This document shows positions 1 to 64,000 of a DNA stretch of 64,000 nucleotides, in pieces. The notes under the pieces are model-generated. The model made no database searches, was not told the origin of the DNA, and worked only from the letters and a program-made list of their open reading frames with translations. The stretch spans positions 1 to 64,000 of the IMG/VR virus record IMGVR_UViG_3300021400_001698. One strand, 5' to 3'. Made by a program: the position numbers and the translations under genes. The stretch is from a virus (lineage: Duplodnaviria > Caudoviricetes). How positions within the stretch are numbered: position 1 is the stretch's first letter; the number at the start of each line of letters is the position of its first letter.

Positions 1-21
1 ACAACTATTATCCTTTTATTT

Positions 22-107
22 CGGAGAGTAGTCCCGTAAGGAGCGGGGTCGGACTGTAAATCCGATGTCTTAGACCCGAGTGGGTTCGATACCCTCTTCT
101 CCGACCA
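22..107 (+). tRNA. trnY: tRNA-Tyr(GTA)
   Basis: Cloverleaf with CGGAGAG/TTCTCCG acceptor, anticodon loop CTGTAAA, long variable arm, TTCGATA T-loop and encoded CCA. Confidence 0.93.
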
Positions 108-138
108 GATTGAATTAAAAATAATAAAGGAGTTTTTA

Positions 139-282
139 ATGGATAAGCCTGATAGTGTTAAAATTTTAGCAGAAATTATTGCATTAACATATGCCATGGG
201 AGCCGAAGAAGATGGTTCTAATCCATATTTTGAGATGTTAGATGATAATACTAAGGAAGTATTAAAAAATTTTTTTGAATAA
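139..282 (+). CDS. small hypothetical protein (47 aa, MDKPDSVKIL...)
   Basis: AAGGAG RBS before ATG; open frame to TAA between two tRNAs. Confidence 0.6.
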   Translation: MDKPDSVKILAEIIALTYAMGAEEDGSNPYFEMLDDNTKEVLKNFFE

Positions 283-310
283 GTGAAGGAGATAGATGCC
301 CTTCCAATAT

Positions 311-387
311 CGGAATATAGCGCAGTTTGGTAGCGCGCCCCGCTTGGGACGGGAAGGCCGCAGGTTCAAATCCTGCTATTCCGACCA
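311..387 (+). tRNA. trnP: tRNA-Pro(TGG)
   Basis: CGGAATA/TATTCCG acceptor, loop CTTGGGA, TTCAAAT T-loop, CCA. Confidence 0.95.
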
Positions 388-480
388 TTAAAAACGTATA
401 TGTGCGGCCGCTTGCTATGTCGTGTACATTGACTTCGCTAGTGCGCAGACATTAGCGACCGCGCGCACCTGTACGTTTAA
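388..480 (+). ncRNA. putative long imperfect hairpin RNA/DNA element
   Basis: Nested complementarity AAACGTATA/TGTACGTTT, GTGCG/CGCAC, ATGTC/GACAT; GC-rich non-coding spacer. Confidence 0.4.
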
Positions 481-1640: not shown

Positions 1641-1836
1641 ATTGCTATAATTATATCGTAAAGTTGAGAGAGAAAACTCATAAAAACTCGGTCTTCGGGA
1701 GTAGTAAGAAGCGTGTGTCGGGTATAGGAACCCCGCGGGTGAACACACGACATGGAGCCTATTAACTTAGTTCACCATATAAGGTCAAAGAGGAATAAAT
1801 ATGAGCGGCCGCGCGTATATGTATGGCCGTAAATCT

Positions 1837-4352: not shown

Positions 4353-4895
4353 ATGTCGCAGTATACACAGTTTTTCATAAAAACAAATTCAAATATATTC
4401 TATCCAATCGGTACGTTCTCACGCAATGATGCTCGCGCGGCCGCCATCAACGATATACTTCCCTACGAATCAATTCGTCCTCTTACGAAATCAGATTGTG
4501 TTGAAGTAATTAATAATCTTGAATCTCAAATTAAGTCATACGAAGAAAGTAAGACAGGTTATAGAGAAAAAATTGAATGGCTTAAAACTGCAACGGGCGA
4601 CCTTAATGAAAGACTTGAACGTATAACTGATTATTTTGGTTATATTGAAGAGATTGATGAAGAGTTACCCGACCTCTATGATGCAATTGGTTTTTATAAA
4701 GGCATTATGGAAATAATTGATGAGGCTGAGATGGATGAGAAATATGGAGAAGGTATAGAGCATGGATTTAATCTCAAAGGGGATTCCTACGTCTATGCGG
4801 GTATAGAGGTTGGCAATCCTAATGTAACCTATGATAAAGATGGTTGGGATAAAGTACTTGAAAATAAAGCGACTGGTTATAAGAGGAAAGAATAA
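4353..4895 (+). CDS. hypothetical protein (coiled-coil, acidic)
   Basis: Start at ATG 4353 after AAGGAG; ORF track frame. Confidence 0.75.
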   Translation: MSQYTQFFIKTNSNIFYPIGTFSRNDARAAAINDILPYESIRPLTKSDCVEVINNLESQIKSYEESKTGYREKIEWLKTATGDLNERLERITDYFGYIEEIDEELPDLYDAIGFYKGIMEIIDEAEMDEKYGEGIEHGFNLKGDSYVYAGIEVGNPNVTYDKDGWDKVLENKATGYKRKE

Positions 4896-5116: not shown

Positions 5117-5584
5117 ATGACTGATTTTGTTCTTTTATGCGCGGTTCCGGGCGCAGGCAAAACATATTTTGGAAAAGTAGCAGAGGAGTCTGGCGAGTAT
5201 AAGCTCGTTTCCTCAGATGACATACGTGAAGCTCTGTGGGGAGACGCAAGCATTCAGAAGAATCCAAAAAGAGTCTTTTCCGAAATGGAGGCCCGCACTA
5301 TTGCGAACTTACAGAAAGGTTATAGCGTAATTTATGACGCAACTAATATAAAAAGAAAGGATAGGCTTTCAATTTTAAACAAGGTAAAAGAGTTATGTCC
5401 ATCTGTAGGAACCTATTGCTTAAGATTTGATGTACCCCTTGATGAATGTATAAGGCGGGCGGCCGCACGTGAACGGAAGGTTTCTGCGGATGTCATATAT
5501 CGTATGGCAGAAAGGTTTGAAGAGCCTGAGTATGATGAAGGCTGGGATTATATATGTACAGTAAGACCAATTAAGGAGGAATAG
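5117..5584 (+). CDS. polynucleotide kinase-like P-loop kinase (AAA_33/PNK kinase domain)
   Basis: Walker A GAGKT, SSDDIRE, YDATN, and RxxxR lid motifs. Confidence 0.85.
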   Translation: MTDFVLLCAVPGAGKTYFGKVAEESGEYKLVSSDDIREALWGDASIQKNPKRVFSEMEARTIANLQKGYSVIYDATNIKRKDRLSILNKVKELCPSVGTYCLRFDVPLDECIRRAAARERKVSADVIYRMAERFEEPEYDEGWDYICTVRPIKEE

Positions 5585-6584: not shown

Positions 6585-7184
6585 ATGTACGCAATACCTA
6601 CAACTGAAGAATTTAAAAGGGCAAGAACCTACTTAGAAGAATTAGTTGAAAATGGTTTCGGTGATTGGGAATCCATGTCATATTATGAATGGTATAATGC
6701 TTATAGCCATGTGTTAGCAGCCAAAGGTTGGGAAGTTCATGATGGCTGTACTAAATCTGTAGTTATTTTTGATGACTTAAATTGGGTTATTAAATGCGAC
6801 CTTGAGGGTTGTGATTATTGCGAGAAGGAAGTTACAAATTGGGAATGTGCCATTAAAGAAGGGTTCACAACTTACCTTGCAGCGACTTATTTTCTAGATT
6901 GTAAGAATGGAATTAATTTTTATATACAGGAATATGCGGCGAGTGATACAGATTATTATGACTCAAAGTGTTATGAATACTACCATTCTGATTCGGAGTC
7001 AAATGAAGATGAAGACTGGTGGGAACCAGATGATGAAGAAATGGTTGTAGCATTAATTGGTGGGCCGCAGGTAGGTATGTTTATGCGTTTTTGTTGGGAA
7101 TTAGACATTAATGACTTACATGCTGGTAACTTCGGACAGACCCTGGACGGCCGCACGGTTATTTTTGATTACTCAGGCTATTAA
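6585..7184 (+). CDS. atypical protein-kinase-fold enzyme (RIO/APH-like)
   Basis: DGCTKSV glycine-loop-like, VIK lysine, DLHAGN catalytic loop, FDYSG as DFG equivalent; start moved to ATG 6585. Confidence 0.7.
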   Translation: MYAIPTTEEFKRARTYLEELVENGFGDWESMSYYEWYNAYSHVLAAKGWEVHDGCTKSVVIFDDLNWVIKCDLEGCDYCEKEVTNWECAIKEGFTTYLAATYFLDCKNGINFYIQEYAASDTDYYDSKCYEYYHSDSESNEDEDWWEPDDEEMVVALIGGPQVGMFMRFCWELDINDLHAGNFGQTLDGRTVIFDYSGY

Positions 7185-7921: not shown

Positions 7922-8197
7922 ATGGATTTTTATCTTTTTGAAGTAACACTTAAATCTCAACTTGATTATGTAAATTATTATGAACATGGGGTCTTATATG
8001 CCGAGAGTTACGAAGAAGCCTTGGATAAACTAAAGAAGTTTTATAAGGATGATGACATTGAAGAGATTAATTTAAAGTTTTATTCTAGTGAGGGCGTGTG
8101 CGTTCTTTCGCCCGTACAGGTTGATGAAGTCGAAACTTTATTCGATGAAGTTGAGGGCGGCCGCACATATACAATTAACTTAGAAAACATTTCATAA
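7922..8197 (+). CDS. hypothetical acidic protein
   Basis: AAGGAG RBS. Confidence 0.75.
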   Translation: MDFYLFEVTLKSQLDYVNYYEHGVLYAESYEEALDKLKKFYKDDDIEEINLKFYSSEGVCVLSPVQVDEVETLFDEVEGGRTYTINLENIS

Positions 8198-10485: not shown

Positions 10486-10582
10486 AGTTAGATGTATACG
10501 CGCGGCGGGTCGTAAATTTACGGGAAAAATAACGCTCGGCCGCACATAACTATCAACTTGAACGTAGAAATTTTCTAGAAAG

Positions 10583-10957: not shown

Positions 10958-11347
10958 ATTGCAATAATTTTCTAAAATTTTGGGAGTTCATGACGCTAAT
11001 TTACGGGCGGCCGCACATAAACGTCCAAAAATTTTTCAAAAACTTGTAATATTGGGATTAATTTTGGGAGAAATAATTTTGGGAGGTTCTATTGGCTAAT
11101 AATTTTGTAGAAATTTTCCAACTTATAAAAATTTCAAAAATTTTTCAAAATTCGTGTCTCAAAAAAATTGTAGAAACTTTTACTAAATTCTACTTATAAT
11201 CGTATTAAGAAAACTTATAATTATTACTTATATATATTACTTATAAGTAATACTTATATATATAACCAAATCAAATCCAAAAAGAAGTCAACCGCGTGCG
11301 AAGAATTAGCAAGGTCCAACGGACCGCAGTCTAATTCGAGCCGCGGA

Positions 11348-12699: not shown

Positions 12700-12910
12700 C
12701 TGGACGCGGCCACATACACATACGACACCTACGATGGCTACGGCGCTGCACCTGTGCATATTGTATACTGTATATTGTATACACAAATGGAAATTTGACT
12801 TTGTTAAAAATTTGACGAGGGCCGGCCAGTTTATACCCGGGGATCGGCCGGCCCGTGGTTTACATAATATATATATTGTAAACCCGTTGGTTGACATAAA
12901 AAAAGAGAGG

Positions 12911-13273
12911 TTAACCCTCTCTCTTCGCGGATATTTCCGCTTTGCGCTTGCGCACTTCCGCATCGCGCGCCACCTTTTTGGCTTTGCGTTCCGCGTTCTC
13001 GCGCGCCTTTTCCGCTTTGGCTTTGCACGACATCTCGTAGTCCTCCGCCATCGCGTACCCATCATATGGGGTCATACCCTTGTCCGCACCTGTGGGGACT
13101 TTAAAGGTGATAACGAGGAAGTCCTCGTTGCCCTCGCACCCTACTACAGGTAGTGCGATTTCGTTGGATTTCACGCGCAACACCTCATTATCTTGTGCGG
13201 TGAGGAATGCGGAAACGGATTCGAGGAACTGCGCGCGGATAAGTTCGCGCTCGGATTTTCTTGATACTGCCAT
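12911..13273 (-). CDS. hypothetical protein with basic C-terminal helix, paralogue of 17417-17773
   Basis: Shared VLRVKSNEIA.PVVGCEGNEDF.VIT.KVPTGADKGMTPYDGYAMAE. Confidence 0.85.
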   Translation of the reverse strand: MAVSRKSERELIRAQFLESVSAFLTAQDNEVLRVKSNEIALPVVGCEGNEDFLVITFKVPTGADKGMTPYDGYAMAEDYEMSCKAKAEKARENAERKAKKVARDAEVRKRKAEISAKREG

Positions 13274-13618
13274 ATGGAGTACCCCCTTTCTTTTATTTTC
13301 TATAGTAATTATAGCAAAATTTTACGGATTTGTCAAGGGAATTTGAAAAGTATTTTGTATACATTGGCTTTGCAATATAATAATTATGTAAACCTAATAG
13401 ATTGTAAATCGCAATTAGACGATGTGGTGGGCCGGCCCGGGACGATCTGCGGCCCGGCATCAACTATTCCGCATAAATTAATTTTAGGAATAGTTGCGGC
13501 CGAGATAAACCCATTGGATACGCAAGTTTAAACTAACTATTCCTATAAAACTAATTTTCGGAATAGTTGCACCGGATCGACCGGCCGTGAACATATGTTT
13601 GCATAAAAAAAAGACGAC

Positions 13619-13882
13619 TTAATCGTCGTCCTCTTCTTCATCATCACAATCATAAATTTTAAAGTCATTAACCTTAAGGTCATACCAATTAGTTTCAAAA
13701 GTTATTCCTACTTTTTCCCATTTTTCAATAAAGGCGTTGAGTTCTTCTACTGCTTGTTTTTTGAGTTCATATCTACGTCTTTTAAATTCTTCTTCAATAT
13801 CTTTCTGAATTTGCCGAAGGTCTTCTTCTGCAATTTCATTAAGGTTACAAGTTGACAGTTCATCAAATAATTCGTATGCCAT
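13619..13882 (-). CDS. hypothetical acidic protein
   Basis: Start moved to MAYEL after AAGGAG. Confidence 0.75.
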   Translation of the reverse strand: MAYELFDELSTCNLNEIAEEDLRQIQKDIEEEFKRRRYELKKQAVEELNAFIEKWEKVGITFETNWYDLKVNDFKIYDCDDEEEDDD

Positions 13883-13896
13883 TTTTATCTCCTTTC

Positions 13897-14094
13897 TTAA
13901 ATTATACTCCAAACGATTTCCTCAACTTCTGAAATTTCTTTTTTTGTATATTCATTATCATTGATTTCAACCGTTTCTATTTCTTCATTAAGCATTGCGG
14001 TATCAATTTCATCTATTAACTTATGAAATTTTCTAATGATTTCTTTTTCTTCGCTTGTAAATTCAACTCTCATTTGCTTGGTTATAATAGTCAT
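13897..14094 (-). CDS. hypothetical protein
   Basis: AAGGAG RBS. Confidence 0.75.
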   Translation of the reverse strand: MTIITKQMRVEFTSEEKEIIRKFHKLIDEIDTAMLNEEIETVEINDNEYTKKEISEVEEIVWSII

Positions 14095-14111
14095 TTTTTT
14101 ATCTCCTTTCT

Positions 14112-14342
14112 TTACTCTATTATATCACTTGGTTCTTCTATTGTCAAGAGATATTTTTGAAAATCTTCTATTTCATCTGTTTCAATAAGATGTTCAACAT
14201 ATACACGAGTCAATCCCTCATCAGTATAAACATTAACTTGTCCACCGCCCCACTCATATTTATCTTGCATATATTTTATAAAGGCATAACCATCTGTTTC
14301 TTTAGTTGAAAAAGTATATTTATCTGTTTTTATCATTAACAT
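14112..14342 (-). CDS. hypothetical protein
   Basis: AAGGAG RBS, own sigmaA promoter. Confidence 0.75.
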   Translation of the reverse strand: MLMIKTDKYTFSTKETDGYAFIKYMQDKYEWGGGQVNVYTDEGLTRVYVEHLIETDEIEDFQKYLLTIEEPSDIIE

Positions 14343-14396
14343 TTTTTTATCTCCTTTCTTATTACACTAATAGTATAACATATAATGCTTTAAAAG

Positions 14397-52041: not shown

Positions 52042-52534
52042 TGTTTTTCCTCCACTCATCGTTTACGTGTTCCCAAATGTTTTGATTTGAGCTACCACGT
52101 AATTTTAAACTTAAATCTTTTTTTGATTCATCAAACGTACCGTCTATTAAAAAATCAATTTTAGATAAGATGGAATCTATCTTGTTATTCGTAGAATTAA
52201 TTAAATCTGTGAATAAAAAACCAGTCCATACATAAATTTTAATGTGCGGATAAGCCGCGCGCACAGCGGATATTATTTCCTCTGTCATTTCTACATTTTG
52301 GGCAGCTAAGGGTTCACCGCCCAATACAGAAAAGTTTCTATTTATTCCATTAGCACCAATTAATTTAATTATTTCCCATTTAGTTTCTGACGTATACTCG
52401 CGGCCGCCCGTAAAATCCCAGGTTTCGGGATTAAAACAGCCTTTGCACCTATGGGGACATCCTTGAACGAAGAGGGAGACACAAACTCCCTCTCCATTTG
52501 TTACATCATTAGGTATTATTGCATTATATCTCAT
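52034..52534 (-). CDS. nrdG: anaerobic ribonucleotide reductase activating enzyme
   Basis: GCPHRCKGCFN CxxxCxxC, GGEPL; adjacent to nrdD. Confidence 0.95.
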   Translation of the reverse strand: MRYNAIIPNDVTNGEGVCVSLFVQGCPHRCKGCFNPETWDFTGGREYTSETKWEIIKLIGANGINRNFSVLGGEPLAAQNVEMTEEIISAVRAAYPHIKIYVWTGFLFTDLINSTNNKIDSILSKIDFLIDGTFDESKKDLSLKLRGSSNQNIWEHVNDEWRKNNE

Positions 52535-54717
52535 TATAGTTTCCTTGAATGTTTAAATCTATCTTCTACTTCTTTCTGTTTTCCATAATTAAATGCTGTT
52601 TTATAATCACCAGTAAGATAACCCGTTACTCTACGAAGTCTTTGTATATGCGTTGAACCACATTCAGGACATTCATTTTCAATCTCACCCGTCCAACCAC
52701 ATTCTAAACATGTATCATTAGGAACATTGATAGCAAAATATGGAATATCTTTATCCATCGCATAGGTTACAATTTGCTCTAATGCGGATAAGTTTTTCAG
52801 AACTGCACCTTCTAATTCAACATATGTGATACAACCAGCACTTGAATATCCCGTAAGCTGACTCTCAATGTCTATTTTATCGAAAGGTGAAATTTCTTTC
52901 CATACGGGTACATGCATTGAATTGGTAAAGTAATCACGCTCACTGACATTTGGAATTACTCCAAAATCTTCTTTGAATTTAGTCATAGCAGTATAGCATA
53001 AATTCTCTGCAGGTGTATAGTATACACCGAAATTAAGTTTATATTGCTGTTTGAACTCGGCGCACCTATCTTTAAAGAGTTGCTCAATGCGCTTTGCAAG
53101 TTCCATTCCTTTTTCAGTTGTGTGGTCGCAGCCGATAAGAATTTGAAGAGCTTCTGCAAGTCCAAGTTGACCAATTACAATTGTTCCATGCTTAAGTGCA
53201 GAACGAATTCCCTCTTCTGGAACATATCCTTCCATTGTACCATTTTCGTACATGAATTTTGCACTTGCAGGAGACTGAGAACAGATATATTCAAAACGTT
53301 CAAGTAACATATCTTTAGCTTCATGAATTTTTTCGTCAAGTAAATACATAAAGTCTTCTACATTACCTGCCTCCATCGCGAGGGTTGGAAGTATAATTGT
53401 TACTGGACAAATGTTTCCGCGGCCGTCTTTAAGTTGACCAAAACCATTAATATCAAAACCATTAGCTGTACGGCAACCCATTGTGCTGAAATATGTGCGC
53501 GGATCATTTCTATCATATCCCGCATTACCACTCCAATCTACATTTGCATAATTTGGATATAAACGCTTTGCAGTTGACTCAAGAGCCAGTTGGAATAAAT
53601 CATAATTCGGTGTACCGGGCTTATCATTAACTCCTTTCATATACTGAAAAATTCCACAAGGGAAAATTGGAGTTTTATGAAGCTTACCAACACCTTTAAT
53701 TGAACCTTGAAGTAAAGCTCTAATAACCATACGACCTTCAGGTAAAGTACAAGTGCCATAATTGATTGAAGTGAAAGGAAGCTGATTACCGCTTCTACTC
53801 TGAAGAGTATTAAGATTATGGTACATACCTTCTACCGCTTGTTGAGTTTCTCTTTCAGTCATATCCATTGCATAAGTATATGCTTTTTCATATGCTTTGA
53901 AATCCTGGTCTTCAATAGACTTATCTTTCATATCATTAAGCCATTCAATAGTATAAATATGCGGTTCAATATACTTCATTCCATCGCAAAAATGTTTGTA
54001 GAATGATTTACGTACATAAGGAACCATAGTCCAATCTAAATGGCTTGCACTCACTCCACCAAATTGCTGAAGCGATTGAAGTTGAAATAAAACTGCCACA
54101 AGTTGAAAAGCAGTATTAACTGAATTGGCAGGGCGCACATCCGTTTGCCTTGTATTAAAGCCTTCTGCAAGTAATTTATCAAAAGGAACTGTAAGGCAAT
54201 TGTGCATACCTAAGATATAAGCATCTAAATCGTGAATATAAATTTCATTATTTAAATGATTATTTCTTGCCATTTCACTTATAATATTATCAAGTGCATA
54301 TTGTTTAAAGATTACGGAATCAGCTTCGCCTCTGCGGCCGCCGAAACTATATTCATCAACATTAGCATTTTGATTCTGAACATCAGTCGCTGCGAGTTTA
54401 ACTGCGACCTTATCCATCATTTGTGTGTTCCAATTACGAACACGAGTTCTTTCGATACGATAGGCTATATAGGCACGAGCTACATCTTTTCTACGTGTGC
54501 TCATTAAACCTTGCTCTACCATATCTTGAATTTCTTCAACGGTAAGTATTTTACCTTTGCTTTTAGCTTCTACAAAATCAGCAATATTATTTGCTTTTTC
54601 AGTGGCATAAGGTGTTATATCTCCGTCAATTGATTTAAAAGCTTTGATGATAGCTTCGATAATTTTATTTTTATTAAATTCAACTAATCTACCATCTCTT
54701 TTCTTAATATATTGCAT
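52534..54717 (-). CDS. nrdD: class III anaerobic ribonucleotide reductase with ATP cone
   Basis: IKKRDGR ATP cone, TMGCRT, CLEC...CPEC, RRVTGYL glycyl-radical motif. Confidence 0.97.
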   Translation of the reverse strand: MQYIKKRDGRLVEFNKNKIIEAIIKAFKSIDGDITPYATEKANNIADFVEAKSKGKILTVEEIQDMVEQGLMSTRRKDVARAYIAYRIERTRVRNWNTQMMDKVAVKLAATDVQNQNANVDEYSFGGRRGEADSVIFKQYALDNIISEMARNNHLNNEIYIHDLDAYILGMHNCLTVPFDKLLAEGFNTRQTDVRPANSVNTAFQLVAVLFQLQSLQQFGGVSASHLDWTMVPYVRKSFYKHFCDGMKYIEPHIYTIEWLNDMKDKSIEDQDFKAYEKAYTYAMDMTERETQQAVEGMYHNLNTLQSRSGNQLPFTSINYGTCTLPEGRMVIRALLQGSIKGVGKLHKTPIFPCGIFQYMKGVNDKPGTPNYDLFQLALESTAKRLYPNYANVDWSGNAGYDRNDPRTYFSTMGCRTANGFDINGFGQLKDGRGNICPVTIILPTLAMEAGNVEDFMYLLDEKIHEAKDMLLERFEYICSQSPASAKFMYENGTMEGYVPEEGIRSALKHGTIVIGQLGLAEALQILIGCDHTTEKGMELAKRIEQLFKDRCAEFKQQYKLNFGVYYTPAENLCYTAMTKFKEDFGVIPNVSERDYFTNSMHVPVWKEISPFDKIDIESQLTGYSSAGCITYVELEGAVLKNLSALEQIVTYAMDKDIPYFAINVPNDTCLECGWTGEIENECPECGSTHIQRLRRVTGYLTGDYKTAFNYGKQKEVEDRFKHSRKL

Positions 54718-54942: not shown

Positions 54943-54946
54943 ATTA

Positions 54947-56041
54947 TCACCTCTCATTTTCATAAAATAAAGTAAATAACTCATAATTTTGCTCGCGCAC
55001 GAATTGGAAACTTTCAATTACTTTTTGTTTTGAAAAGTTTAAACTTTTATAATTTTCTTCGCTTAAATGAGCAAAAAAGCTATACATCGTATCGTATATT
55101 AGTTTTGTTTTGCGAGTACGATGTTCTACAAGCGCGCGGCAGTGGTCTGTGTAAAAGTCAAACAATTTCATCACTTGAATCCAACGTTTATCATGGAAAA
55201 AGTTGTCATCATAAATAAGTGAAAAATTTAATGCTTGACTACGTAAAGTTGATATGGTGCGCATTAGTTGTACTATATCTTGTGTTATAAATTTATCATA
55301 AGTAGTATTATCAGTTACATTTAAGGTTGTTTGTTTTATTACTGATGGGGAAGAAGCCTTAGATATAAGTTCTGGCCACCACTCAAGGTTAGGTATTCCA
55401 TTATATTGTATAGAATAAAATTTACCACTTGGAAGTAATTGATACCAAGGAATTAAATCTGATTCTGAATTAATTTGAACTGGAAATTTCATTCCCACAC
55501 GTTGGCGCATAGGTATTAAATTTTCTTCTAAAAGTTCATGTATCATTTCAAGACTTCCGTTGATGCGCGCGAGGTCGAAATCATGTAGCATGAGCATATT
55601 ATGCGGCCGGTCTTTAGGAATTTGACGTTTGAGTTTATCCCATAGATTCTGCTCGTCCAATGAAAGTCTCATATGTAATGCATTTTGCATTATTTTTAGC
55701 ATTTGAGGTTCTGTTTGAGTACGCCACATGTAGTTTTCAACAGTATTATAAATACTTATATCTGGGGCGCACATTTCAATTTCAATTGGTAAAGCTTTAT
55801 ATTTCCATCCATCATACGCTCGGCCGCCGTAAACGACATTTTTACGATATGGCAAATATTTCGGTGATGGATAATCTTGTCTTACTAAATAATTTGAATA
55901 TCGTTCAGGAATAAAACGAGGAGTAAAACTTACTATTTGACGTTTACGTTTATAGTAAGTAGATAATTTCATTAGTTCTAAGTTAAAGACGGGGACAGAG
56001 GGGTATAATTTTAAATCCCCGTCATATAAACCATAACTCAT
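54947..56041 (-). CDS. degenerate radical-SAM-associated protein
   Basis: N-terminus GLYDGD...FNLELMKLSTYYK...GG...LPIEIE...PDISIY resembles the N-domain of phage radical SAM proteins; no CxxxCxxC. Confidence 0.5.
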   Translation of the reverse strand: MSYGLYDGDLKLYPSVPVFNLELMKLSTYYKRKRQIVSFTPRFIPERYSNYLVRQDYPSPKYLPYRKNVVYGGRAYDGWKYKALPIEIEMCAPDISIYNTVENYMWRTQTEPQMLKIMQNALHMRLSLDEQNLWDKLKRQIPKDRPHNMLMLHDFDLARINGSLEMIHELLEENLIPMRQRVGMKFPVQINSESDLIPWYQLLPSGKFYSIQYNGIPNLEWWPELISKASSPSVIKQTTLNVTDNTTYDKFITQDIVQLMRTISTLRSQALNFSLIYDDNFFHDKRWIQVMKLFDFYTDHCRALVEHRTRKTKLIYDTMYSFFAHLSEENYKSLNFSKQKVIESFQFVREQNYELFTLFYENER

Positions 56042-59000
56042 ATTTCAATTCTTTCTGTTTGAGTTTTAATATATCCATCTTCATCAATTGAAGTTATTAA
56101 TTCAACTAAATGATGTGGAGTTGACTTATATTTCTTTGCAATAAAATTATCTTCTCGTTTAATTCCTGTTATAATAACTTTATTTCCCCTTGAAAGCCAT
56201 GATTTCTCAACTACGTGTTTGTGACCATCTGCGCCCTTTTCAGAAATTTGTTTATCATAATGAGTAAACGCATCACCAAAAATTTTAACAGTTACAACAC
56301 TATCAGTTGTTAATAAAGTTACTGTTTTCTTATTCTTATCTTTATCTAAAACAGTTCCTGCTATACGATAAATTTTATATAATGGAATTTTTTGACCAGT
56401 TTGTTTTGAAGTAAATTCATAATTTACTGTTGGTTCATCGGATAACTTCGAGAAATCTGAAAAACCATAAATTATATTTTTTACTTTACTCAATTCATGG
56501 TCATGTATATAACAAGAAATTGAATCCATTTCCCATTTACTTATATTACCATCACAATATTTATCCCATAAATCTTTATATAATCTACGATTTACTTTAT
56601 TTAATAAATCTAAATTATTTTTTTGAATAAATGGACGAATTATATCCATTTGTTTCTTATATAACATATCCCATTTAACTTGTTTGATTGTAAATAAAAT
56701 TCCATCTTGATTATATGGTGTTAAATAATCTATATCAAAGTTATTACTATAAAAAGTAAAAGCTGGCATATCTAATCCATATGAATCATTAATTTTATTT
56801 TTCTTTATATACTTATTAAAGTTAAATACTCTACATTGAAAATCATATTCTTTAGGAATTAGTTTAAAGTCAATTAACATCTTCATATTTTGAAGAGTTA
56901 TTCTCTTCTTTTTATCACTAATTAAATCTATATAAAGTTCCATCGCTGAAACTCTATCATTATATAAATTATCAAATGCTCCCGATTTAATTAAATTAAC
57001 CATTTGAGGTTTATTAATTTTAACTTTACTCAAAAAGTCTGGAATTGATTCATACGGACGATTATTCATAATTTCACGAATTAAATCATCACCAACTCTT
57101 GTAATTCCACTTAAACCGTAAATAATTAAATTCTTTTCTACATCTGGCGCAAATGTATATGAAGATTTATTTATATCTGTTGCAACAATTGTAATACCAT
57201 TATTTTTCATTTTACCAATTGCTGTTGCAATCTTACCATAATTTGCTGTCTTATTTGTTTTCTTTTTAGGTGCGGCCGGTCCATCTTCTTCTTCATCAAC
57301 TTCTTCCTCTTCTTCAGATTCTTCTTCGAAGTTACCTATATCATTAGAATAAAATTCTTCAACCGCATTAACTATTTCATCTTCTTCTTCAATTTCTTTT
57401 TCTGCGCCGCCGCTATCTGTTATCAGACACGCGCAATCCCATAAAATCAATGGATACCTATATGCTAAATTTAACTCTTGAAGTCCAATTAATGAATATG
57501 CTAACGTATGAGATAAGTTGAAACCATAACCTTTACTCATCGCAATTAATATATTCCAAGTATAATCACAAAGTTTTTCATCTAAACCTTTTTCTTTAAT
57601 TGTCTTAAAATATTCTTCAGTTAATTTATCATATTCTGCTGGATTCTTCTTTGCAATTGATTTTCTTAACTTATCTGCCCAAGTAAGATTAAATCCACCT
57701 AACTCTGGAAGTTGAACCAACTGCATAAACTGCTCCTGTGCAATACATAAACCATATGAAACTCCTAAAACTGGTTCAAGGATTTTCTTTGCTTCTGCGC
57801 CAAGACCATACTTTTTAAGTTCTTTATCCCAATCACCTGGATGTGCTTTAAATCTTGCAAGTTTATTAACTGGCATTTCTCCGCCCTTTTCAGTCGCCAT
57901 TAATCTAATTGCAGAATTAAGAATTGCTAAGTCATCTACTGAGGTCGGTTTCATCGCTGCAATTCCACTAATACCAGATTGCTTTTCCATTTGGAATAAA
58001 CTTTGAACTTTATGCTCCCAACACATTTTCCACATCTCAGGTGCTTCACGTTCTAACTTATAAATTCCAATGATTTTTTCATAAGTTTCTCTCAAAGTAT
58101 TCTCTCTTGACTCATATCCATAATCACAAATTAAATCAATACAATTATGAATTTTATCTAATGCTTCAACTGAAAGAATATCATATTTAATTAAACCTGT
58201 ATCTTCAGCGGCATGAAGATCAAACTGAGTTATAATCTCTCCATTGGGTGCGCGCATAAGTGCAGCTGAATCAGTAAATGGTTCATCAACAAAGATAACT
58301 CCACCCGCATGAACTCCACAACCATTTATTAATCCCTCAATTCCTTGAGCTACTTTCCATAACTCAGGATAATTTTCTTCCATTTCAATTCTAAATTGTT
58401 TTGAAGCACTTATTCCATTTTCAGAATCTCCATAAAAAGTTTGCTTTAAAGTTCTTAATTGTCCTCTATCTGCCTCAATAAATGAAGATAAATATTGAGC
58501 TGTATCTACATCAATTCCCAAACCACGTGCCGCGGTTAAGATTGCAGACTTAGATTTTTCAGTTTTTAAAGTCAAAACATTCGCAACTCTATCTTCTCCA
58601 TAGATACGACGAAAGTTCTTTAAAACTTCTGCTCTGCGGCCGCCTTCAATATCAATATCTACATCAAGAACTGATACACGTTCAGGATTTAAAAATCTCC
58701 AACGCTTCGTCTGGCTCTTTTCTCTTAATGGATTAATTTGAGTTATACCTAACAAATATAATAAGATAAATCCTACCCCAGACCCACGGCCGCATCCAAC
58801 TAATGTTCCTGCGTCCCAACATGAGTCAATTATATTTTGAAGATTTAAGAAATATGCGCTCCATCTACTTCCATTTACTTCAGAACTAATCCATGTATCT
58901 TCAAGACAAGCATTAATTTCATCAGCAGTTTCTTTATTCCATAAGTTATCTTCTACTGTACTATTAACTAATCTATCAATAATTGCATAAGCAAGATGTT

Positions 59001-60102: not shown

Positions 60103-60324
60103 GTTATTTAATAATTTTTGACGTAAATCTTCTTTATTAAAACTCTTACATCCAAAATAACTTTCATCATCAAAGGTTTCCATTAGAAATAATTCAATTA
60201 AATGATTAAAATCCATTTTGAAGTCTAAAGAATCTGCATCTTTAAAAGAATCTCCAATGATATAATTATCGGTTTCAGTACAATGAGTTAAAACAAATAA
60301 CAAAAACATAGTATTAAAATTCAT
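60091..60324 (-). CDS. hypothetical protein
   Basis: GAGGT RBS. Confidence 0.6.
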   Translation of the reverse strand: MNFNTMFLLFVLTHCTETDNYIIGDSFKDADSLDFKMDFNHLIELFLMETFDDESYFGCKSFNKEDLRQKLLNNLTI

Positions 60325-60334
60325 TATATACCTC

Positions 60335-62083
60335 TTAAAATCCTAATGTTCCATCGTCAATTTGAAAATCAGTAATAAAAATTTGTGGCGTTATTCTTCC
60401 CGCAAACTCATTTAAATTTGCTCTACCTACAATTTCTAATTTAATTGAATCAGAAGGTACTGTCGCCAATTGTTCAATCATTTCTTTTGCATGAAATTTA
60501 AGATAAGTAACTCCAAACTTTTCAATTCTAATAGTATCTGCATTCTTACCAATAACTGCGATATCATTTCTTTTTAAATTAATATCAGTTACATGAATAA
60601 GTGGTTCAGAATTATGCTGTCCAAATATATCTTCATTCGCGGCAAGGTCGTAAATCAATGGAATTATATCTGGGTCTGCCGCGAAACGTTCGAAGTTGAC
60701 TTCATACCAATTCTCACCAAAATCCATATCTGCTAACTCTTTATTCGCATATTCATGGAAATCATGTAAATTCTTATCAAGAATTGAAATACCGCAAGCA
60801 TTATCATGACCAGCTGTATATTCAAAATATCCACTTTCATTCATAAAGTCTTTAAAAGACTTAAGCGCAGATTCATTTAAGCCTCTACTTGAACCTCTAT
60901 CATATCCTTCATCATTTAATCGAGCTACAATTGTTGGACGCTTATACTTCGCAGCCAACTTCATTGCAGTTAATCCATTTAATTCTGCAGGGAAATCTTC
61001 TTCATCTAATCTAACGAATAAAATTTTATTTTCTAAAAGGTCATATTTAAAAATTTTAATTTCAAGTTCTTCTACAGCCTTATCGAGAATTCGATTTTGC
61101 TTTGCTCTTGCATTTGTACACTCGCGCGCAGACTCAATCGCAACTTCTTCATACGTTCCCTTCGCGCCACGCTTTTGACTTGGAACCATCTGATGTCCAT
61201 CAATAAATGCTTCAAAGCATCTGCGCTTTTCATCCATTGTACCTACACGAATTAATGCGTTGATTAAAGGTGTGATATAGAAAGCAATTGTTGTGGGATT
61301 AATTTTACCTCCCATTGAAAAAGACTGCTTTTCACAAAGAGCAAGGAAGAAATAGTTTTTAATATTTCTTAAACCTTCATAGATGATATATCTATTCTCA
61401 GGCGATATAACACTCATCATATCACTGACAATTCCAAGCGCGGCGAGGTCAATTAAATCATCAGCATAATCTGTTCCTTTGCGCATATCACAGAAGCGAC
61501 AAAATTGCCAAGCTACACCCGCGCCACAAAGGTCTTTGTTTTGATACCTTTGTGATAGCTGATTATTAATAATTACTGCAGAAGACGAGAACTGAGTATC
61601 TTCTTCTACAATATGATGGTCGAGAACAAGACATTTAATTCCTTGCGCGCCCAGTCGTTCATGAAATACATAATCATTACTACTACTATCAGGTAAAATT
61701 ACATATCTTAAGTTATCTTCTCCTTCAAGAATTGTATCTATTACATCGCTAAGTCCATGACCCTTACCTTCATGAAGAATATAATCAATTTGTAAGTTTG
61801 GGTTTACTCGCTTTAAATAAGTATACATGATTGCACTAGAAGTAAAGCCATCTACATCAGAATCTACAACTAATAAGATTCGCTTATCTGGGGCGAGATT
61901 GGTTATTTCTTCGAACAGATTATAACCTTGAAAGATATTATCAAAAGCTTCGGGGTCTTGTAATAAACCTTGAACTGGTTCTCCTAAAAAGTAAGGTAAT
62001 ACATCTTCCGTAACTCCACGTTCCTTTAAAAGTTCTGCAGTATAATCTTGTCTTATATCTTTATTTACTAATTTTGTCTTCAC
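60335..62083 (-). CDS. recJ: ssDNA 5'-3' exonuclease RecJ (DHH family)
   Basis: DSDVDG, ILPD, LDHH, LCGAGV, GSSRG, AGH motifs. Confidence 0.93.
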   Translation of the reverse strand: MKTKLVNKDIRQDYTAELLKERGVTEDVLPYFLGEPVQGLLQDPEAFDNIFQGYNLFEEITNLAPDKRILLVVDSDVDGFTSSAIMYTYLKRVNPNLQIDYILHEGKGHGLSDVIDTILEGEDNLRYVILPDSSSNDYVFHERLGAQGIKCLVLDHHIVEEDTQFSSSAVIINNQLSQRYQNKDLCGAGVAWQFCRFCDMRKGTDYADDLIDLAALGIVSDMMSVISPENRYIIYEGLRNIKNYFFLALCEKQSFSMGGKINPTTIAFYITPLINALIRVGTMDEKRRCFEAFIDGHQMVPSQKRGAKGTYEEVAIESARECTNARAKQNRILDKAVEELEIKIFKYDLLENKILFVRLDEEDFPAELNGLTAMKLAAKYKRPTIVARLNDEGYDRGSSRGLNESALKSFKDFMNESGYFEYTAGHDNACGISILDKNLHDFHEYANKELADMDFGENWYEVNFERFAADPDIIPLIYDLAANEDIFGQHNSEPLIHVTDINLKRNDIAVIGKNADTIRIEKFGVTYLKFHAKEMIEQLATVPSDSIKLEIVGRANLNEFAGRITPQIFITDFQIDDGTLGF

Positions 62084-63129
62084 TTTACAATAACTCTCCT
62101 TTGTAACAATTTTTCAAATGTATCTTGTCCTTTATCTGTAGGAGAGTCCTTTAATTCAAGTAAATTCTCCATATCATAAATAAAAGAAAAGTTTGCATAA
62201 TTTTTATATTTATTGCATAGTTTATATAGTTTATTAAAATATATATCTTCACCAGGTTTTTCTTCCTTATCGAAGCAAATTACAATTTCATTTGGATGGC
62301 AATTTTGAATTAAAATTTTAAGTGCAAATTTATTAAACTGACTTCCGCATACGGCGGCCGCGCAATTTAAACGGTCAAAACTATCCATTTGTAATACTGA
62401 TTTTTCTGCTTCAAAAATAAAACATATACCTGTCTTTTTTATATTTTCTTTTGTCTTATTAAGTCCATATAAGTTAAGAGATAAAGGATGACTATACCAT
62501 TTACCTTCAATTTGAACTGGCATATATTTACCTATATTCTCTACTTCCCAAGGATTCAAGGCTCGGCCGCGCACACCTACTAACTTATTATCAATATTAT
62601 AATGAGGTATTATAATTTTATTCTGTGGTATGGAATATAAAATATTAAATTTATCCATCGCAGTTTTACTAATTCCATCATTAAGCCATTCTGGTGGATA
62701 GAACTTAGTAAAAGTATTTAAAATACCTTCTGAATATGTGGGAAGCTGTATATGTTCAGGACGTCTATATTGGTCGCGAATTGATTTATAAGTTGCATGT
62801 CCAGGCGCGGCCAGCCGAAAATTACTGCAATCAAGAACGACCTTATATATATCTTCATACCAGTCAAAGTCAATTCCTCTCGTTTCATAGTAGTGTCGAA
62901 GGAATTTAAAAATTGACATATTACCATCCTCTGTATAGCATACAAAAAGATGATTATTTTCATAGTAATATAATTTCATTGAAGCTTGCGCGGGGTCCTC
63001 ATTATGACATATCGTCGGAAAAATCACATAACCGGGGCGCCGCACATATGTTTCAACTCCTAATCGTTCCATTAAGTCAATTATCTTATCTGTATTTAAC
63101 TGTTCAATAATACCTTGATAATCAATCAA
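62080..63129 (-). CDS. dnaG: DnaG-like primase (Zn-binding-like N-domain plus TOPRIM)
   Basis: ICH...CYT N-domain, IIPHY...GVRGR, LYGL, IFEAEKSV, ICFDKE. Confidence 0.8.
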   Translation of the reverse strand: MIDYQGIIEQLNTDKIIDLMERLGVETYVRRPGYVIFPTICHNEDPAQASMKLYYYENNHLFVCYTEDGNMSIFKFLRHYYETRGIDFDWYEDIYKVVLDCSNFRLAAPGHATYKSIRDQYRRPEHIQLPTYSEGILNTFTKFYPPEWLNDGISKTAMDKFNILYSIPQNKIIIPHYNIDNKLVGVRGRALNPWEVENIGKYMPVQIEGKWYSHPLSLNLYGLNKTKENIKKTGICFIFEAEKSVLQMDSFDRLNCAAAVCGSQFNKFALKILIQNCHPNEIVICFDKEEKPGEDIYFNKLYKLCNKYKNYANFSFIYDMENLLELKDSPTDKGQDTFEKLLQRRVIVK

Positions 63130-64000
63130 CTACTTCACCATTTTCTAACCTTTCAATTATTTCTTTTAATCTTTTATCTTCTTCAGAATCCCAATTCTTA
63201 ATCTGATATTCTTCTCTTTCATAAAAATTTTCAACTGGAACCATTCTTGCATCAGTTACAAATAAATCTTTTCTTTTTAAAGTTCCTAAATTCATAACTG
63301 ACCAAATGCGGACTTGTGTCCATTCTCCACTTCTCACTTTATATATATCAGTTACTAAATTCGGTGTATCAGGCATTCCCGCTAAAATTGGAGTTAACAC
63401 ATCTAATTCTTCTTTTGTTGGTCTTGCCATAATCGCACCATTATCTGCCTTATTAATTGTACTACGACCACCCGCGAGACTTCCTTCATTTCTTATATCT
63501 TTATTATCATCGCCTTTTGCATTTAACTGAGTTGAAGTAAACATCGCTACATCTAACTCAACCGCTAAATCTTTTAAAGCCGTTGCAAACATTAACAATA
63601 CTTCATCATTTCTTAAAGCGAATCCTCTAAATTCATCAAGTAATGCTGGACCAATAAAAATATAATCATAAAATACATAACCTATATCTCGAGTGATACA
63701 ATTTTCTCTGACTAAAGTTTTTACAAGTTCAATTGTCGGATTCGGCATCTTAACGAGAGTCAAATTCTCTTCATAATGTTTCATTAATCCAATCGCTTGA
63801 GCGATTACAGCCTGCTCTCTCTCATTAAAATCTCCATATTTAAAACGACTTTCACTAAAATCAGTTAAGTAAGCCAAAATCATTTTTCTAACTTCTTTAA
63901 ACTGTTGCTCTGTTACTATAAATAAAACTTTTTCACAATTTCCAACCTGTTCCCATTCACAAGTTTCTGAATTATATCTAATCGGATAAGCTAAATAACA
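63122..64000 (-). CDS. dnaB: DnaB-like replicative helicase, C-terminal part (truncated by window end)
   Basis: Frame stays open to 64000 (VLFIVTEQ); YVFYDYI, STQLN, KAD motifs. Confidence 0.85.
   Translation of the reverse strand, partial: CYLAYPIRYNSETCEWEQVGNCEKVLFIVTEQQFKEVRKMILAYLTDFSESRFKYGDFNEREQAVIAQAIGLMKHYEENLTLVKMPNPTIELVKTLVRENCITRDIGYVFYDYIFIGPALLDEFRGFALRNDEVLLMFATALKDLAVELDVAMFTSTQLNAKGDDNKDIRNEGSLAGGRSTINKADNGAIMARPTKEELDVLTPILAGMPDTPNLVTDIYKVRSGEWTQVRIWSVMNLGTLKRKDLFVTDARMVPVENFYEREEYQIKNWDSEEDKRLKEIIERLENGEVVD

What the first reader, a model, noticed from the sequence alone, without database searches (positions are those of the whole stretch)
1..64000. Window-wide excess of the palindrome CGGCCG in an AT-rich phage
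By eye I count about 45 CGGCCG (often GCGGCCGC or GGCCGGCC). A base-composition estimate at about one-third GC gives only 1-2. About half sit in the 12-24 kb intergenic modules. The rest lie inside genes on both strands (e.g. 4438, 5459, 7147, 26650, 27656, 36521, 52401, 54335, 58636, 62355), fitted in through Ala/Gly/Arg codons. I saw none in the portal-capsid genes or the 9-kb tape measure gene. Phages usually deplete palindromic 6-mers to avoid restriction, so this is the opposite of expectation. It resembles HIP1- or Chi-like sequences. Inference: a site for a phage DNA-binding/packaging/recombination protein or a methylation mark.
Basis: partly seen in the sequence, partly recalled or inferred. 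Interest (0 to 1): 0.8.

Follow-up and report, generated by a model that had tools for sequence, protein, structure and literature searches.

The report
Switchable GC palindrome marks in phage
An AT-rich gut phage writes the 6-letter palindrome CGGCCG about 24 times more often than chance into silent codon positions and into every early-gene spacer, its relatives do the same with other all-GC palindromes, and nothing in the phage genomes explains what reads these words.

Summary
CGGCCG occurs 47 times in 64 kb, against 2 expected from dinucleotide shuffles. Inside genes it occurs 23 times, against 3.3 expected from synonymous-codon shuffles. Twenty-two sites are a fixed GC core in the spacers of a promoter-cassette array, between a terminator plus operator and the next promoter. 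The rest sit in all three reading frames of early and replication genes. There, 25-40% of the positions that could encode the word silently do so, against 1 of 70 in late structural genes.

The signal is the exact hexamer: A/T one-letter variants are at expectation. It is strand-symmetric and better conserved than the same codons elsewhere. The whole phage family (110-145 kb genomes from animal gut metagenomes) enriches GCGCGC/CGCGCG. Lineages differ in the extra palindrome: CGGCCG here, GGCGCC plus CCCGGG in a relative, and CGGCCG purged in a sister clade. A relative carries GCCCGGGCGCC in the same spacer slot.

No cytosine or N4/N6 methyltransferase and no Vsr gene was found, and there is no very-short-patch repair footprint. 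The best reading is a selected, HIP-like DNA word read by an unidentified two-fold-symmetric protein and tied to early/middle transcription units. The scan has noted similar unexplained word excesses in other phages.

The parts
405..410 (.). CGGCCG (as GCGGCCGC) between tRNA-Pro and tRNA-Lys in the tRNA cluster
1806..1811 (.). CGGCCG in an 11-base GC run just upstream of tRNA-Ser
4438..4443 (.). genic site, early + strand ORF 4290-4895, written as Ala-Ala (GCG GCC)
5460..5465 (.). genic site in ORF 5117-5584; conserved in relative G001
7148..7153 (.). genic site 36 nt before the stop of ORF 6522-7184 (CGGCCGCAC form)
8158..8163 (.). genic site 39 nt before the stop of ORF 7922-8197 (CGGCCGCACATA form)
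10537..10542 (.). intergenic site (CGGCCGCACATA form)
11008..11013 (.). intergenic site (CGGCCGCACATA form)
12845..23807 (-). Cassette array with 22 CGGCCG sites in about 19 spacer cores, at 12845, 13497, 13582, 14698, 15702, 16223, 16553, 17990, 18604, 19317, 19741, 19782, 20393, 21115/21119, 21793/21797, 22333, 23044/23048, 23741 and 23802. Read on the minus strand, each module runs: terminator, AT-rich palindromic operator (for example CGAACATATGTTCG or TTGTTAATTAACAA), GC core holding CGGCCG(G), CTTTA..TAAAG repeat, then a TTGACA-17-TATAAT promoter.
   Evidence: Where a terminator was called, the core lies about 25-45 bp past it and about 50-80 bp before the -35 box.
26651..26656 (.). genic site in small ORF 26555-26794, downstream of the sigma-factor gene (25245-26558)
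26850..27760 (.). three genic sites (26850, 27656, 27755) in ORF 26794-27783 (phrog_3314), the last gene before the large terminase; 27656 is conserved in G002, G003 and G004
34300..34305 (.). one of only two sites in the late region; intergenic between 34177 and 34352
36523..36528 (.). the only genic site of the structural module (ORF 36278-36778)
49441..49446 (.). genic site in the RuvC-like resolvase gene (49037-49768, minus strand)
52401..52406 (.). genic site in the NrdG gene (52034-52534); conserved in G001
53420..54340 (.). two genic sites (53420, 54335) in the 727-aa gene 52534-54717, assigned to NrdD by size (a NrdD hit was reported among the 64 window proteins, not mapped to an ORF)
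55604..55826 (.). two genic sites (55604, 55821) in ORF 54947-56041 (no family found)
57273..58792 (.). three genic sites (57273, 58637, 58787) in the 1333-aa gene 56038-60039, assigned to DNA polymerase III alpha by size (hit not mapped to an ORF); 58637 and 58787 are conserved in G001
62355..62569 (.). two genic sites (62355, 62564) in the primase gene (62080-63129); both conserved in G001

Best explanation
CGGCCG is this lineage's version of a highly iterated palindrome. It is a short all-GC word kept on duplex phage DNA by selection, as the recognition site of a two-fold-symmetric DNA-binding protein or enzyme that has not been identified.

The phage places it in two ways. First, it is the constant GC core of every spacer in the array of host-sigma-type early cassettes, between the upstream terminator and operator and the next promoter. 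Second, it is scattered through early and replication genes at silent codon positions. It is nearly absent from the late structural genes that follow the phage's own sigma-factor gene.

Related lineages keep the same architecture but use a different all-GC palindrome, so reader and word appear to change together.

The function I think most likely is a boundary or regulatory mark of the early/middle transcription units, acting as topological insulation or temporal control. The family's own type IIA topoisomerase (GyrA/GyrB-like) and a small dimeric regulator are the leading candidate readers.

Shown: the excess, its hexamer specificity, strand symmetry, conservation, module bias, fixed spacer position and lineage switching. 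Inferred: that a protein reads it, which protein, and what binding achieves.
For: Size of the excess:
- 47 sites against 1.98 expected.
- 23 against 3.25 expected inside genes under synonymous shuffling.
- All three frames are used: Gly-Arg in 12 sites, Ala-Ala in 10, Arg-Pro in 5.

Specificity, pooled over the window and six relatives (clade A):
- CGGCCG is 168 against 31.7 expected (5.3x).
- Every A/T one-letter variant is 0.67-1.41x.
- The 5-mers CGGCC and GGCCG outside the hexamer are 1.1x.
- Enriched non-palindromic words and their reverse complements have equal ratios on the coding strand, which points to duplex DNA.

Maintenance:
- Third codon positions inside sites are retained in 82 of 134 cases, against 47.4 expected from the same codons outside sites.

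Module bias, as sites realised over positions that could hold the word silently:
- early genes 4/11
- array genes 5/20
- 24.7-27.8 kb region 4/10
- replication genes 11/39
- structural genes 1/70
- Pooled over eight genomes (clade A plus G016), replication genes are about 11x (41/3.8) and structural genes about 2.8x (13/4.6) over codon-shuffle expectation.

Fixed slot:
- The array modules run terminator, operator, CGGCCG core, promoter.
- Relative G002 has the same module with GCCCGGGCGCC in that slot. All 17 of its copies lie in its array.
- G002's genes are enriched in GGCGCC instead: 43 against 3.3 genome-wide.

Lineage switching:
- This is seen across 24 genomes.
- In each lineage the top word is a palindrome.

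Candidate readers:
- GyrA- and GyrB-like genes are core to the family.
- A sigma-factor gene sits at 25245-26558, just before the site-poor late module.
Against: - No reader was identified.
- No accessory gene cluster is present in the CGGCCG-rich genomes and absent from the CGGCCG-poor ones.
- Site spacing looks random given local density.
- Known type IIA topoisomerases read DNA loosely and indirectly (PMC6379681), not as exact hexamers. Flanks of the (GC)3 sites show no 10.5-bp periodicity. The weak signal at CGGCCG flanks is confounded by homologous flanks.
- Relatives that also carry the topoisomerase enrich non-palindromic words such as GCGGCAC or CGCCGC.
- There is also a general excess of GC-only runs that grows with run length and has very diverse sequences. 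Part of the signal may therefore be a looser 'GC island' effect rather than a strict site.
- The conservation test counts orthologous sites in six related genomes, so the counts are not independent.
Confidence: 0.4

Rival explanations
1. This is a HIP-type methylation process driven by the host. A host Type II-like cytosine methyltransferase (EagI/NotI-type here, other specificities in other hosts) marks these palindromes. Either a methylation-dependent mismatch repair creates and keeps the sites, or the methyl marks themselves are useful to the phage.
For: - The enriched words are exactly classical Type IIP restriction-modification hexamers, and lineages switch among them.
- A sister clade purges CGGCCG (3 against 15.5 expected) and GCGGCC. 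The same genomes avoid GATC, CTAG and sometimes GGCC. Restriction-modification pressure on these words is therefore real.
- No phage gene tracks the word, which fits a host-encoded factor.
- Elhai (PMC4390886) found that alternate GC-rich HIPs in cyanobacteria go with a cognate methyltransferase, and proposed such a repair drive.
Against: - No C5 or N4/N6 methyltransferase and no Vsr were found in the phage genomes.
- C-to-T neighbours are not depleted: TGGCCG 0.97, CGGTCG 1.03, CGGCTG 1.09.
- A repair drive should act on all phage DNA, yet the structural module is spared (1 of 70 against 11 of 39).
- In the one MAG that bins a related phage with putative host contigs, those contigs lack CCGCGG (1 against 11.3 expected) while the phage has 45 against 2.9.
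- The host of this phage is unknown.
Confidence: 0.25
2. The sites are preferred gate-segment sites of the phage-encoded type IIA topoisomerase. They would act like REP/BIME-2 elements or the Mu strong gyrase site, relieving supercoils between and within heavily transcribed early/middle units. This is a specific sub-case of the best explanation.
For: - GyrA- and GyrB-like genes are present in every complete genome of the family and in distant relatives.
- A 6-bp palindrome fits a 4-bp staggered cut with one flanking base on each side. This is an inference from enzyme geometry.
- The array cores lie exactly where positive and negative supercoils of neighbouring units meet.
- Gyrase is drawn downstream of transcribed units and cleaves intergenic BIME-2 repeats in E. 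coli (PMC6379681).
Against: - The gyrase motif known from E. coli is 130 bp long, degenerate and read indirectly (PMC6379681), not as an exact hexamer.
- There is no flank periodicity at (GC)3 sites.
- Relatives with the enzyme use non-palindromic words.
- The late genes should also be heavily transcribed, yet they lack sites.
Confidence: 0.12
3. The word is a Chi-like signal that attenuates the host AddAB/RecBCD nuclease and so protects replicating or entering phage DNA.
For: - Chi words are short, GC-rich and host-lineage-specific, and phages that rely on host recombination accumulate them (PMC3784561).
- No Gam-like inhibitor was noticed among the listed families.
Against: - The word is a perfect palindrome, and the enriched shifted words are strand-symmetric. 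Known Chi sites are asymmetric and oriented.
- Several different words are enriched at once in one genome.
- Assemblies are circular with no defined ends to protect.
- The structural third of the genome is left without sites.
Confidence: 0.06
4. There is no dedicated function. The excess is a by-product of one repeated spacer module plus neutral context effects, such as clustering of rare GC-rich codons, dinucleotide-step preferences, or slower decay of GC islands in an AT-biased genome.
For: - 22 of the 47 sites belong to one repeat family.
- GC-only runs of 6-12 bases are generally 1.3- to 11-fold enriched, with diverse sequences.
- GC-rich codon pairs with CG/GC junctions are broadly favoured.
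Against: - The enrichment is specific to the exact hexamer. GC-only neighbours are only 1.1-2.5x and GGGCCC is 0.1x.
- There is a 26-fold contrast between sister clades for the same word (5.3x against 0.2x).
- Sites are retained above same-codon controls.
- The spacer core and the genic word change together between lineages.
- Module bias exists at equal GC3: 0.217 in structural genes and 0.211 in replication genes.
Confidence: 0.07

Closest known systems
HIP1 (GCGATCGC) and alternate highly iterated palindromes of cyanobacteria (PMC4390886, PMC5861425)
   Same: - A GC-rich palindrome 15-fold or more over-represented.
- Present within and between genes and in all frames.
- Conserved above background.
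- Replaced by a different GC-rich palindrome in some lineages.
- Function still unknown.
   Different: - Here it is in a phage family, not a cellular chromosome.
- The word is 6 bp (partly 8 bp) and all-GC, in a 35% GC genome.
- No cognate methyltransferase is found in the same genome.
- The excess is confined to early/middle modules.
- Half of the copies are a fixed part of a promoter-cassette spacer.
- No spacing regularity was seen among neighbouring sites.
REP/BIME-2 elements and strong gyrase sites (Mu SGS) (PMC6379681)
   Same: - GC-rich symmetric elements placed between transcription units, downstream of terminators.
- A type IIA topoisomerase is encoded by the phage family itself.
   Different: - REPs are about 35-bp imperfect palindromes that can form hairpins, and they are extragenic.
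- Here the cores are 6-14 bp, and about half of the sites are inside genes.
- Binding by a topoisomerase is untested.
Restriction-site avoidance in phages
   Same: The same class of words (Type IIP palindromes) is involved. The family shows classical avoidance of GATC, CATG, CTAG and GGGCCC, and clade B also avoids CGGCCG.
   Different: The sign is opposite in this lineage: the word is accumulated and retained, not purged.
Chi sites accumulated by phages (PMC3784561)
   Same: A short GC-rich, lineage-specific word enriched genome-wide on phage DNA.
   Different: Chi is asymmetric and oriented. Here the word is palindromic and strand-symmetric, several words co-occur, and a whole module is exempt.
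Very-short-patch repair footprints (Dcm/Vsr, CCWGG in E. coli; from general knowledge)
   Same: This is a known route by which a methylated palindrome becomes over-represented.
   Different: Neither the Vsr gene nor the depletion of T-variants was found, and the effect here is far larger.

Membership tests
Highly iterated palindromes (HIP) | GC-rich palindromic oligomer at least about 15-fold over-represented | tested here: met
   47 against 1.98. GCGGCCGC is 12 against 0.1 and GGCCGGCC is 11 against 0.1.
Highly iterated palindromes (HIP) | Occurs inside and between genes, in every reading frame | tested here: met
   Frames 0, 1 and 2 hold 5, 10 and 12 sites, and 20 sites are intergenic.
Highly iterated palindromes (HIP) | Sites conserved above background (selection rather than replenishment) | tested here: met
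   82 of 134 silent positions are retained against 47.4 expected. 7 of 14 sites are kept in G001, against 0.35-0.46 for other 6-mers. The counts are not independent across genomes.
Highly iterated palindromes (HIP) | Cognate DNA methyltransferase in the same genome | tested here: not met
   There are no PF00145 or PF01555 hits in five complete relatives, and no PF00145 hits in G001-G004. None is among the listed families of the window's 64 proteins. Only G001 and G039 carry an SPPY-type methylase. The host was not testable.
Highly iterated palindromes (HIP) | Alternate palindromes in related lineages | tested here: met
Highly iterated palindromes (HIP) | Periodic distribution along the chromosome | tested here: inconclusive
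   Neighbour distances match a local-density null. The 10-90 kb periods reported for HIP1 cannot be assessed on a genome of about 120 kb.
Chi-like nuclease-attenuation sites | Asymmetric word with orientation bias | tested here: not met
   The word is a palindrome, and shifted words equal their reverse complements (177 against 180).
Chi-like nuclease-attenuation sites | Same word enriched and oriented in the host chromosome | not testable with these tools
   The host is unknown. No genome is held for the window, and MAG bins give inconsistent taxa.
Very-short-patch repair footprint | Vsr endonuclease gene | tested here: not met
   PF03852 is absent from G001-G004. The complete relatives were not searched, and the host is unknown.
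Very-short-patch repair footprint | Depletion of the C-to-T variants of the site | tested here: not met
   TGGCCG 0.97, CGGTCG 1.03, CGGCTG 1.09, CAGCCG 0.87, CGACCG 1.41, CGGCCA 1.13.
REP/BIME-type topoisomerase sites | Intergenic position downstream of transcription units | tested here: met
   Met for the 22 array sites but not for the 27 sites inside called ORFs.
REP/BIME-type topoisomerase sites | Imperfect palindrome of about 35 bp able to form a hairpin | tested here: not met
   The cores are GC runs of 6-14 bases.
REP/BIME-type topoisomerase sites | Bound or cleaved by a type IIA topoisomerase; phased flanking arms | tested here: inconclusive
   The enzyme genes are present in the family. 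Flank periodicity is weak for CGGCCG and absent for (GC)3. Binding is not testable here.
Restriction-site avoidance | Word under-represented against a codon-preserving null | tested here: not met
   The opposite sign holds in this lineage (5.3x). Avoidance is met in sister clade B (0.2x).

The most novel reading that the evidence does not exclude
A large family of animal-gut phages carries a previously undescribed chromosome-marking system. Exact all-GC palindromes are written at every early-cassette boundary and through early/middle genes, but kept out of the late module. The word is swapped between lineages together with its unknown reader. The system could be a phage-specific way to partition the chromosome into temporal or topological domains, or to label phage DNA as self.
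Probability: 0.3. Interest if true: 0.85.

Novelty: new variant of a known kind. Interest (0 to 1): 0.72.

Why it matters
Phages are expected to purge restriction-type palindromes. This family does purge GATC, CTAG and GGGCCC, yet it accumulates and conserves other palindromes of the same class. The chosen word differs between close lineages, and the same word appears in genes and in a fixed regulatory-spacer slot.

That makes the old HIP question (what reads an iterated palindrome?) approachable in a small system. The genome is about 120 kb, more than 100 natural variants exist, the contrast between marked and unmarked modules is clear, and the list of candidate readers is short.

The finding is also a practical warning for motif-based host prediction and for restriction-avoidance statistics on phage genomes.

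Tried and rejected
1. Phage-encoded methyltransferase or Vsr. HMM searches were empty: PF00145 and PF03852 on G001-G004, and PF00145 and PF01555 on five complete genomes. A motif scan found xPPY-motif ORFs in four genomes (G001, G005, G028, G039), and only G001's was checked against Pfam (PF01555).
2. Very-short-patch footprint. C-to-T neighbours are not depleted.
3. A 5-mer core (CGGCC, GCSGC) as the true unit. Outside the hexamer, CGGCC/GGCCG are 1.1x and GCGGC/GCCGC are 1.4-1.7x.
4. Paired or periodic spacing. None was found.
5. Link to genome ends. The 'terminal repeats' are 107-127-bp assembly overlaps, so the assemblies are circular.
6. Accessory gene tracking CGGCCG-rich genomes. None was found. 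Earlier associations only reflected clade structure.
7. Host identification. No genome is held for the window. MAG bins holding relatives span Methanobrevibacter, Clostridia, Erysipelotrichaceae, Acutalibacteraceae and Melainabacteria, so they are unreliable. The one phage/putative-host comparison was contradictory.
8. Close isolated relatives. Nucleotide search of the phage collection found none, and the best protein match was 40% identical.
9. Public reads. All 20 runs are kept only as contigs, so nicks, ends or modification cannot be seen. Read laying was not spent.
10. Literature. Word searches for CGGCCG or GC-palindrome excess in phages found nothing relevant.
11. Gyrase-like phased flanks. 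The result was inconclusive.
12. 7-deazaguanine or other base-modification genes in the window. Both radical-SAM proteins match NrdG-type families.

Full report
**Observation**

CGGCCG occurs 47 times in the 64-kb window (34.6% GC). One hundred dinucleotide-preserving shuffles give a mean of 1.98 and at most 6. It is the most deviant of all 4096 hexamers. Twelve copies are GCGGCCGC and eleven are GGCCGGCC. Twenty-two copies lie at 12.8-23.8 kb. None lies between 27,761 and 34,299, or between 36,529 and 49,440, which includes the 9-kb tape-measure gene.

**What the window is**

- A cluster of 12 tRNA genes at 22-2192.
- A plus-strand early block at 2.4-11.9 kb.
- A minus-strand array of small cassettes at 11.9-24.7 kb. 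It has 14 perfect and about 15 near-perfect TTGACA-17-TATAAT promoters and many terminators.
- A sigma-factor gene at 25,245-26,558.
- A packaging and structural module starting with an SPbeta/YonF-type large terminase at 27,783.
- A minus-strand replication module at 48.6-64 kb. Among its proteins are a RuvC-like resolvase, dUTPase, NrdG, primase and DnaB (mapped). DNA polymerase III alpha, NrdD and a RecJ-like exonuclease were also reported and assigned to ORFs by size.

No close isolate exists. More than 100 related contigs of 110-145 kb are in IMG/VR. The sequence is held by ruminant and other animal gut metagenomes from 8 studies. Relatives show that the rest of the genome encodes GyrA- and GyrB-like topoisomerase subunits, a UvrD-like helicase, a ligase and homing endonucleases.

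**The excess is not explained by composition, codons or proteins**

- Shuffling synonymous codons within each of 69 genes gives 3.25 sites (maximum 9 in 500 shuffles) against 23 observed.
- The sites use all three frames: GGC-CGN (Gly-Arg) 12, GCG-GCC (Ala-Ala) 10, CGG-CCG (Arg-Pro) 5.
- Alignment with relatives shows that sites differ mainly by point substitutions, largely at silent positions, with few insertions or deletions.
- Pooled over seven genomes of the same clade, the hexamer is 5.3-fold over the codon-shuffle expectation (168 against 31.7).
- Every A/T one-letter variant is at 0.67-1.41.
- The 5-mers CGGCC and GGCCG outside the hexamer are at 1.1.
- Enriched non-palindromic neighbours such as GCGGCC and GGCCGC have equal ratios on the coding strand (177 and 180). 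The signal is therefore on duplex DNA, not on mRNA.
- Third codon positions inside sites are retained between the window and six relatives in 82 of 134 cases. The same codons outside sites predict 47.4. These comparisons share ancestry, so the size of the effect matters more than any p-value.

**Two populations of sites**

The first population is the array. Read on the minus strand, each spacer runs in this order:

1. terminator hairpin and T-run
2. an AT-rich palindromic operator (a perfect Gram-positive SOS box CGAACATATGTTCG, or TTGTTAATTAACAA, or a TGTATA..TATACA type)
3. directly abutting it, a GC core containing CGGCCG(G)
4. a CTTTA..TAAAG inverted repeat
5. the next TTGACA promoter

Where terminators were called, the core lies about 25-45 bp past the terminator and about 50-80 bp before the -35 box.

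The second population is genic and strongly module-biased. The table gives sites realised over all positions where the protein sequence would allow CGGCCG to be written silently.

| Module | Realised / possible |
|---|---|
| Early genes | 4 / 11 |
| Array genes | 5 / 20 |
| 24.7-27.8 kb | 4 / 10 |
| Replication genes | 11 / 39 |
| Structural genes | 1 / 70 |

GC3 is the same in the replication and structural modules: 0.211 and 0.217. The same contrast holds when eight related genomes (clade A plus G016) are pooled. Replication genes are at 41 against 3.8 (about 11-fold) and structural genes at 13 against 4.6 (about 2.8-fold) over codon-shuffle expectation.

**CGGCCG is one member of a family-wide, switchable set**

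- In the window, GCGCGC (24), CGCGCG (22) and GCCGGC (18) are also about 7-10 times expectation.
- Across 24 related genomes, (GC)3 words are enriched 5-15-fold almost everywhere. The extra palindrome differs:
  - CGGCCG at 23-40 per 100 kb in the window's clade.
  - GGCGCC (43 against 3.3) plus CCCGGG (19 against 2.4) in G002.
  - CGGCCG plus CCGCGG without GCGCGC in G016.
  - GCCGGC (79) plus CCGCGG (45) in a 172-kb relative.
- In sister clade B, CGGCCG is purged (3 against 15.5 under codon shuffling) and so is GCGGCC.
- GGGCCC and G or C homopolymer words are depleted in clade A and, less strongly, in clade B.
- More distant relatives at 29-30% GC enrich non-palindromic GC words such as CGCCGC or GCGGCAC.
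- In each lineage examined the top word is a palindrome. In the window's clade the top three of 36 all-GC word classes are all palindromes.
- G002's 43 GGCGCC sites are not shared with the window (0 of 9 aligned), so they are lineage-specific gains.
- G002 has the same spacer architecture as the window, but with GCCCGGGCGCC in the slot where the window has CGGCCGG. All 17 copies of GCCCGGGC lie in its array.

The word used in the spacer slot and the word used in genes therefore change together.

**What was excluded**

- Phage methyltransferase. PF00145 and PF01555 are absent from five complete CGGCCG-rich genomes, and PF00145 from four further contigs. Nothing appears among the listed Pfam and PHROG families of the window's proteins. 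Only G001 and G039 carry an SPPY-type methylase, which the window lacks at the orthologous place.
- Vsr. No gene was found, and C-to-T variants are not depleted.
- Chi-like orientation. The palindrome and the strand symmetry argue against it.
- Spacing rule. None was found.
- Genome ends. The assemblies are circular.
- Accessory genes. None tracks the CGGCCG-rich state.
- Host. It could not be identified. In the one bin that pairs a relative with putative host contigs, the two agree on GATC avoidance and GCCGGC excess but disagree on CCGCGG and GCGC.

**Interpretation**

The shown facts are:

- exact-hexamer specificity
- duplex symmetry
- retention above same-codon controls
- palindromy of the top words
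- a fixed slot in a regulatory spacer
- co-variation of spacer and genic words between lineages
- confinement to early/middle modules

Together they fit a selected recognition site for a two-fold-symmetric DNA-binding protein or enzyme. I take this as the best explanation (confidence about 0.4).

The most likely role is as a boundary or regulatory mark of the early/middle units that carry host-sigma-type promoters. The site-poor late module begins just after the phage's own sigma-factor gene.

The family's own type IIA topoisomerase is an attractive candidate reader. The array cores sit where supercoils of neighbouring units collide. Gyrase is known to target intergenic REP/BIME-2 elements and regions downstream of transcription (PMC6379681). 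However, known enzymes of this class do not read exact hexamers, and the flank test was inconclusive.

The main rival (about 0.25) is a host-driven, HIP-type methylation process of the kind proposed for cyanobacteria (PMC4390886). It explains the restriction-enzyme-like words, the switching and the absence of a phage gene. It does not explain the spared structural module or the lack of a deamination-repair footprint.

A purely neutral origin is unlikely, given the 26-fold contrast between sister clades for one word.

**Comparison with what is known**

The closest analogue is HIP1 and its alternates. These are over-represented GC-rich palindromes, conserved within and between genes, replaced in some lineages, and of unknown function (PMC4390886, PMC5861425).

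The differences here are:

- a phage family rather than a cellular chromosome
- a 6-bp all-GC word in an AT-rich genome
- no cognate methyltransferase in the genome
- module restriction
- a fixed place in a promoter-cassette spacer

Earlier notes of this scan report comparable unexplained word excesses in other phages: CGCG, GGGGCC, AGTACT and GTTTAAAC. I did not test those. They suggest that the phenomenon is wider than this family.

Noticed in passing
window 12400-24800 (minus strand): There are 14 perfect and about 15 near-perfect TTGACA-17-TATAAT promoters. The scan also finds 22 terminator-like hairpins on both strands (7.4 expected). Together they form an array of about 30 tiny early cassettes. 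The spacers carry several different AT-rich palindromic operators, including perfect Gram-positive SOS boxes.
   Followed up: partly
window 25245-26558: A 437-aa protein has a C-terminal part that matches a phage sigma-factor family (phrog_5767, E 3.7e-14). It sits just upstream of the late module, which lacks CGGCCG.
   Followed up: partly
window, whole: GATC is strongly avoided (30 against 157-197 expected). CATG and CTAG are at about 0.55-0.6 of maximal-order Markov expectation (CTAG 0.34 against dinucleotide expectation). The phage is therefore under ordinary restriction pressure at other palindromes.
   Followed up: yes
G001 (IMG/VR contig of L004) 64322-65311: A 329-aa N4/N6-type DNA methylase gene (PF01555) lies between the 582-aa gene (matching the window's RecJ-size ORF) and the DNA polymerase III alpha gene. 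The window has only 258 bp at that place.
   Followed up: partly
G001 50170-55096 and all complete relatives: GyrB-like (about 620 aa) and GyrA-like (about 782 aa, with the C-terminal beta-pinwheel domain) genes are core genes of the family. By synteny they lie a few kb beyond the right end of the window.
   Followed up: partly
G045:C1 (L236-L243), 153-kb relative at 28.7% GC: The 10-bp palindrome GTTATATAAC occurs 48 times against 0.5 expected. CGCCGC/GCGGCG occurs 40 times against 1.2.
   Followed up: no
G048:C4 (L216-L224), 172-kb relative: The 10-bp palindrome TGCCGCGGCA occurs 17 times against about 0 expected. The asymmetric word GCGGCAC occurs 60 times against 1.3. GATC is almost absent (3 against 530).
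   Followed up: no
G048:C1 and C2 (L225-L235), Melainabacteria MAG contigs: These are putative host contigs with extreme avoidance of GCGC (5 against 408) and CGCG (7 against 328). GGCC is at 0.21 and GATC at 0.09. CCGG is enriched 1.85-fold.
   Followed up: no
G025 (L167-L172), clade B genome: CTAG is completely absent (0 against 257 expected) and GGCC is nearly absent (9 against 106).
   Followed up: no
window 5460, 7148, 8158, 10537, 11008: In the early plus-strand block the site recurs as CGGCCGCAC(ATA), close to gene ends or between genes. This resembles the array form CGGCCGCGAACATA and hints at a second, looser spacer module.
   Followed up: no
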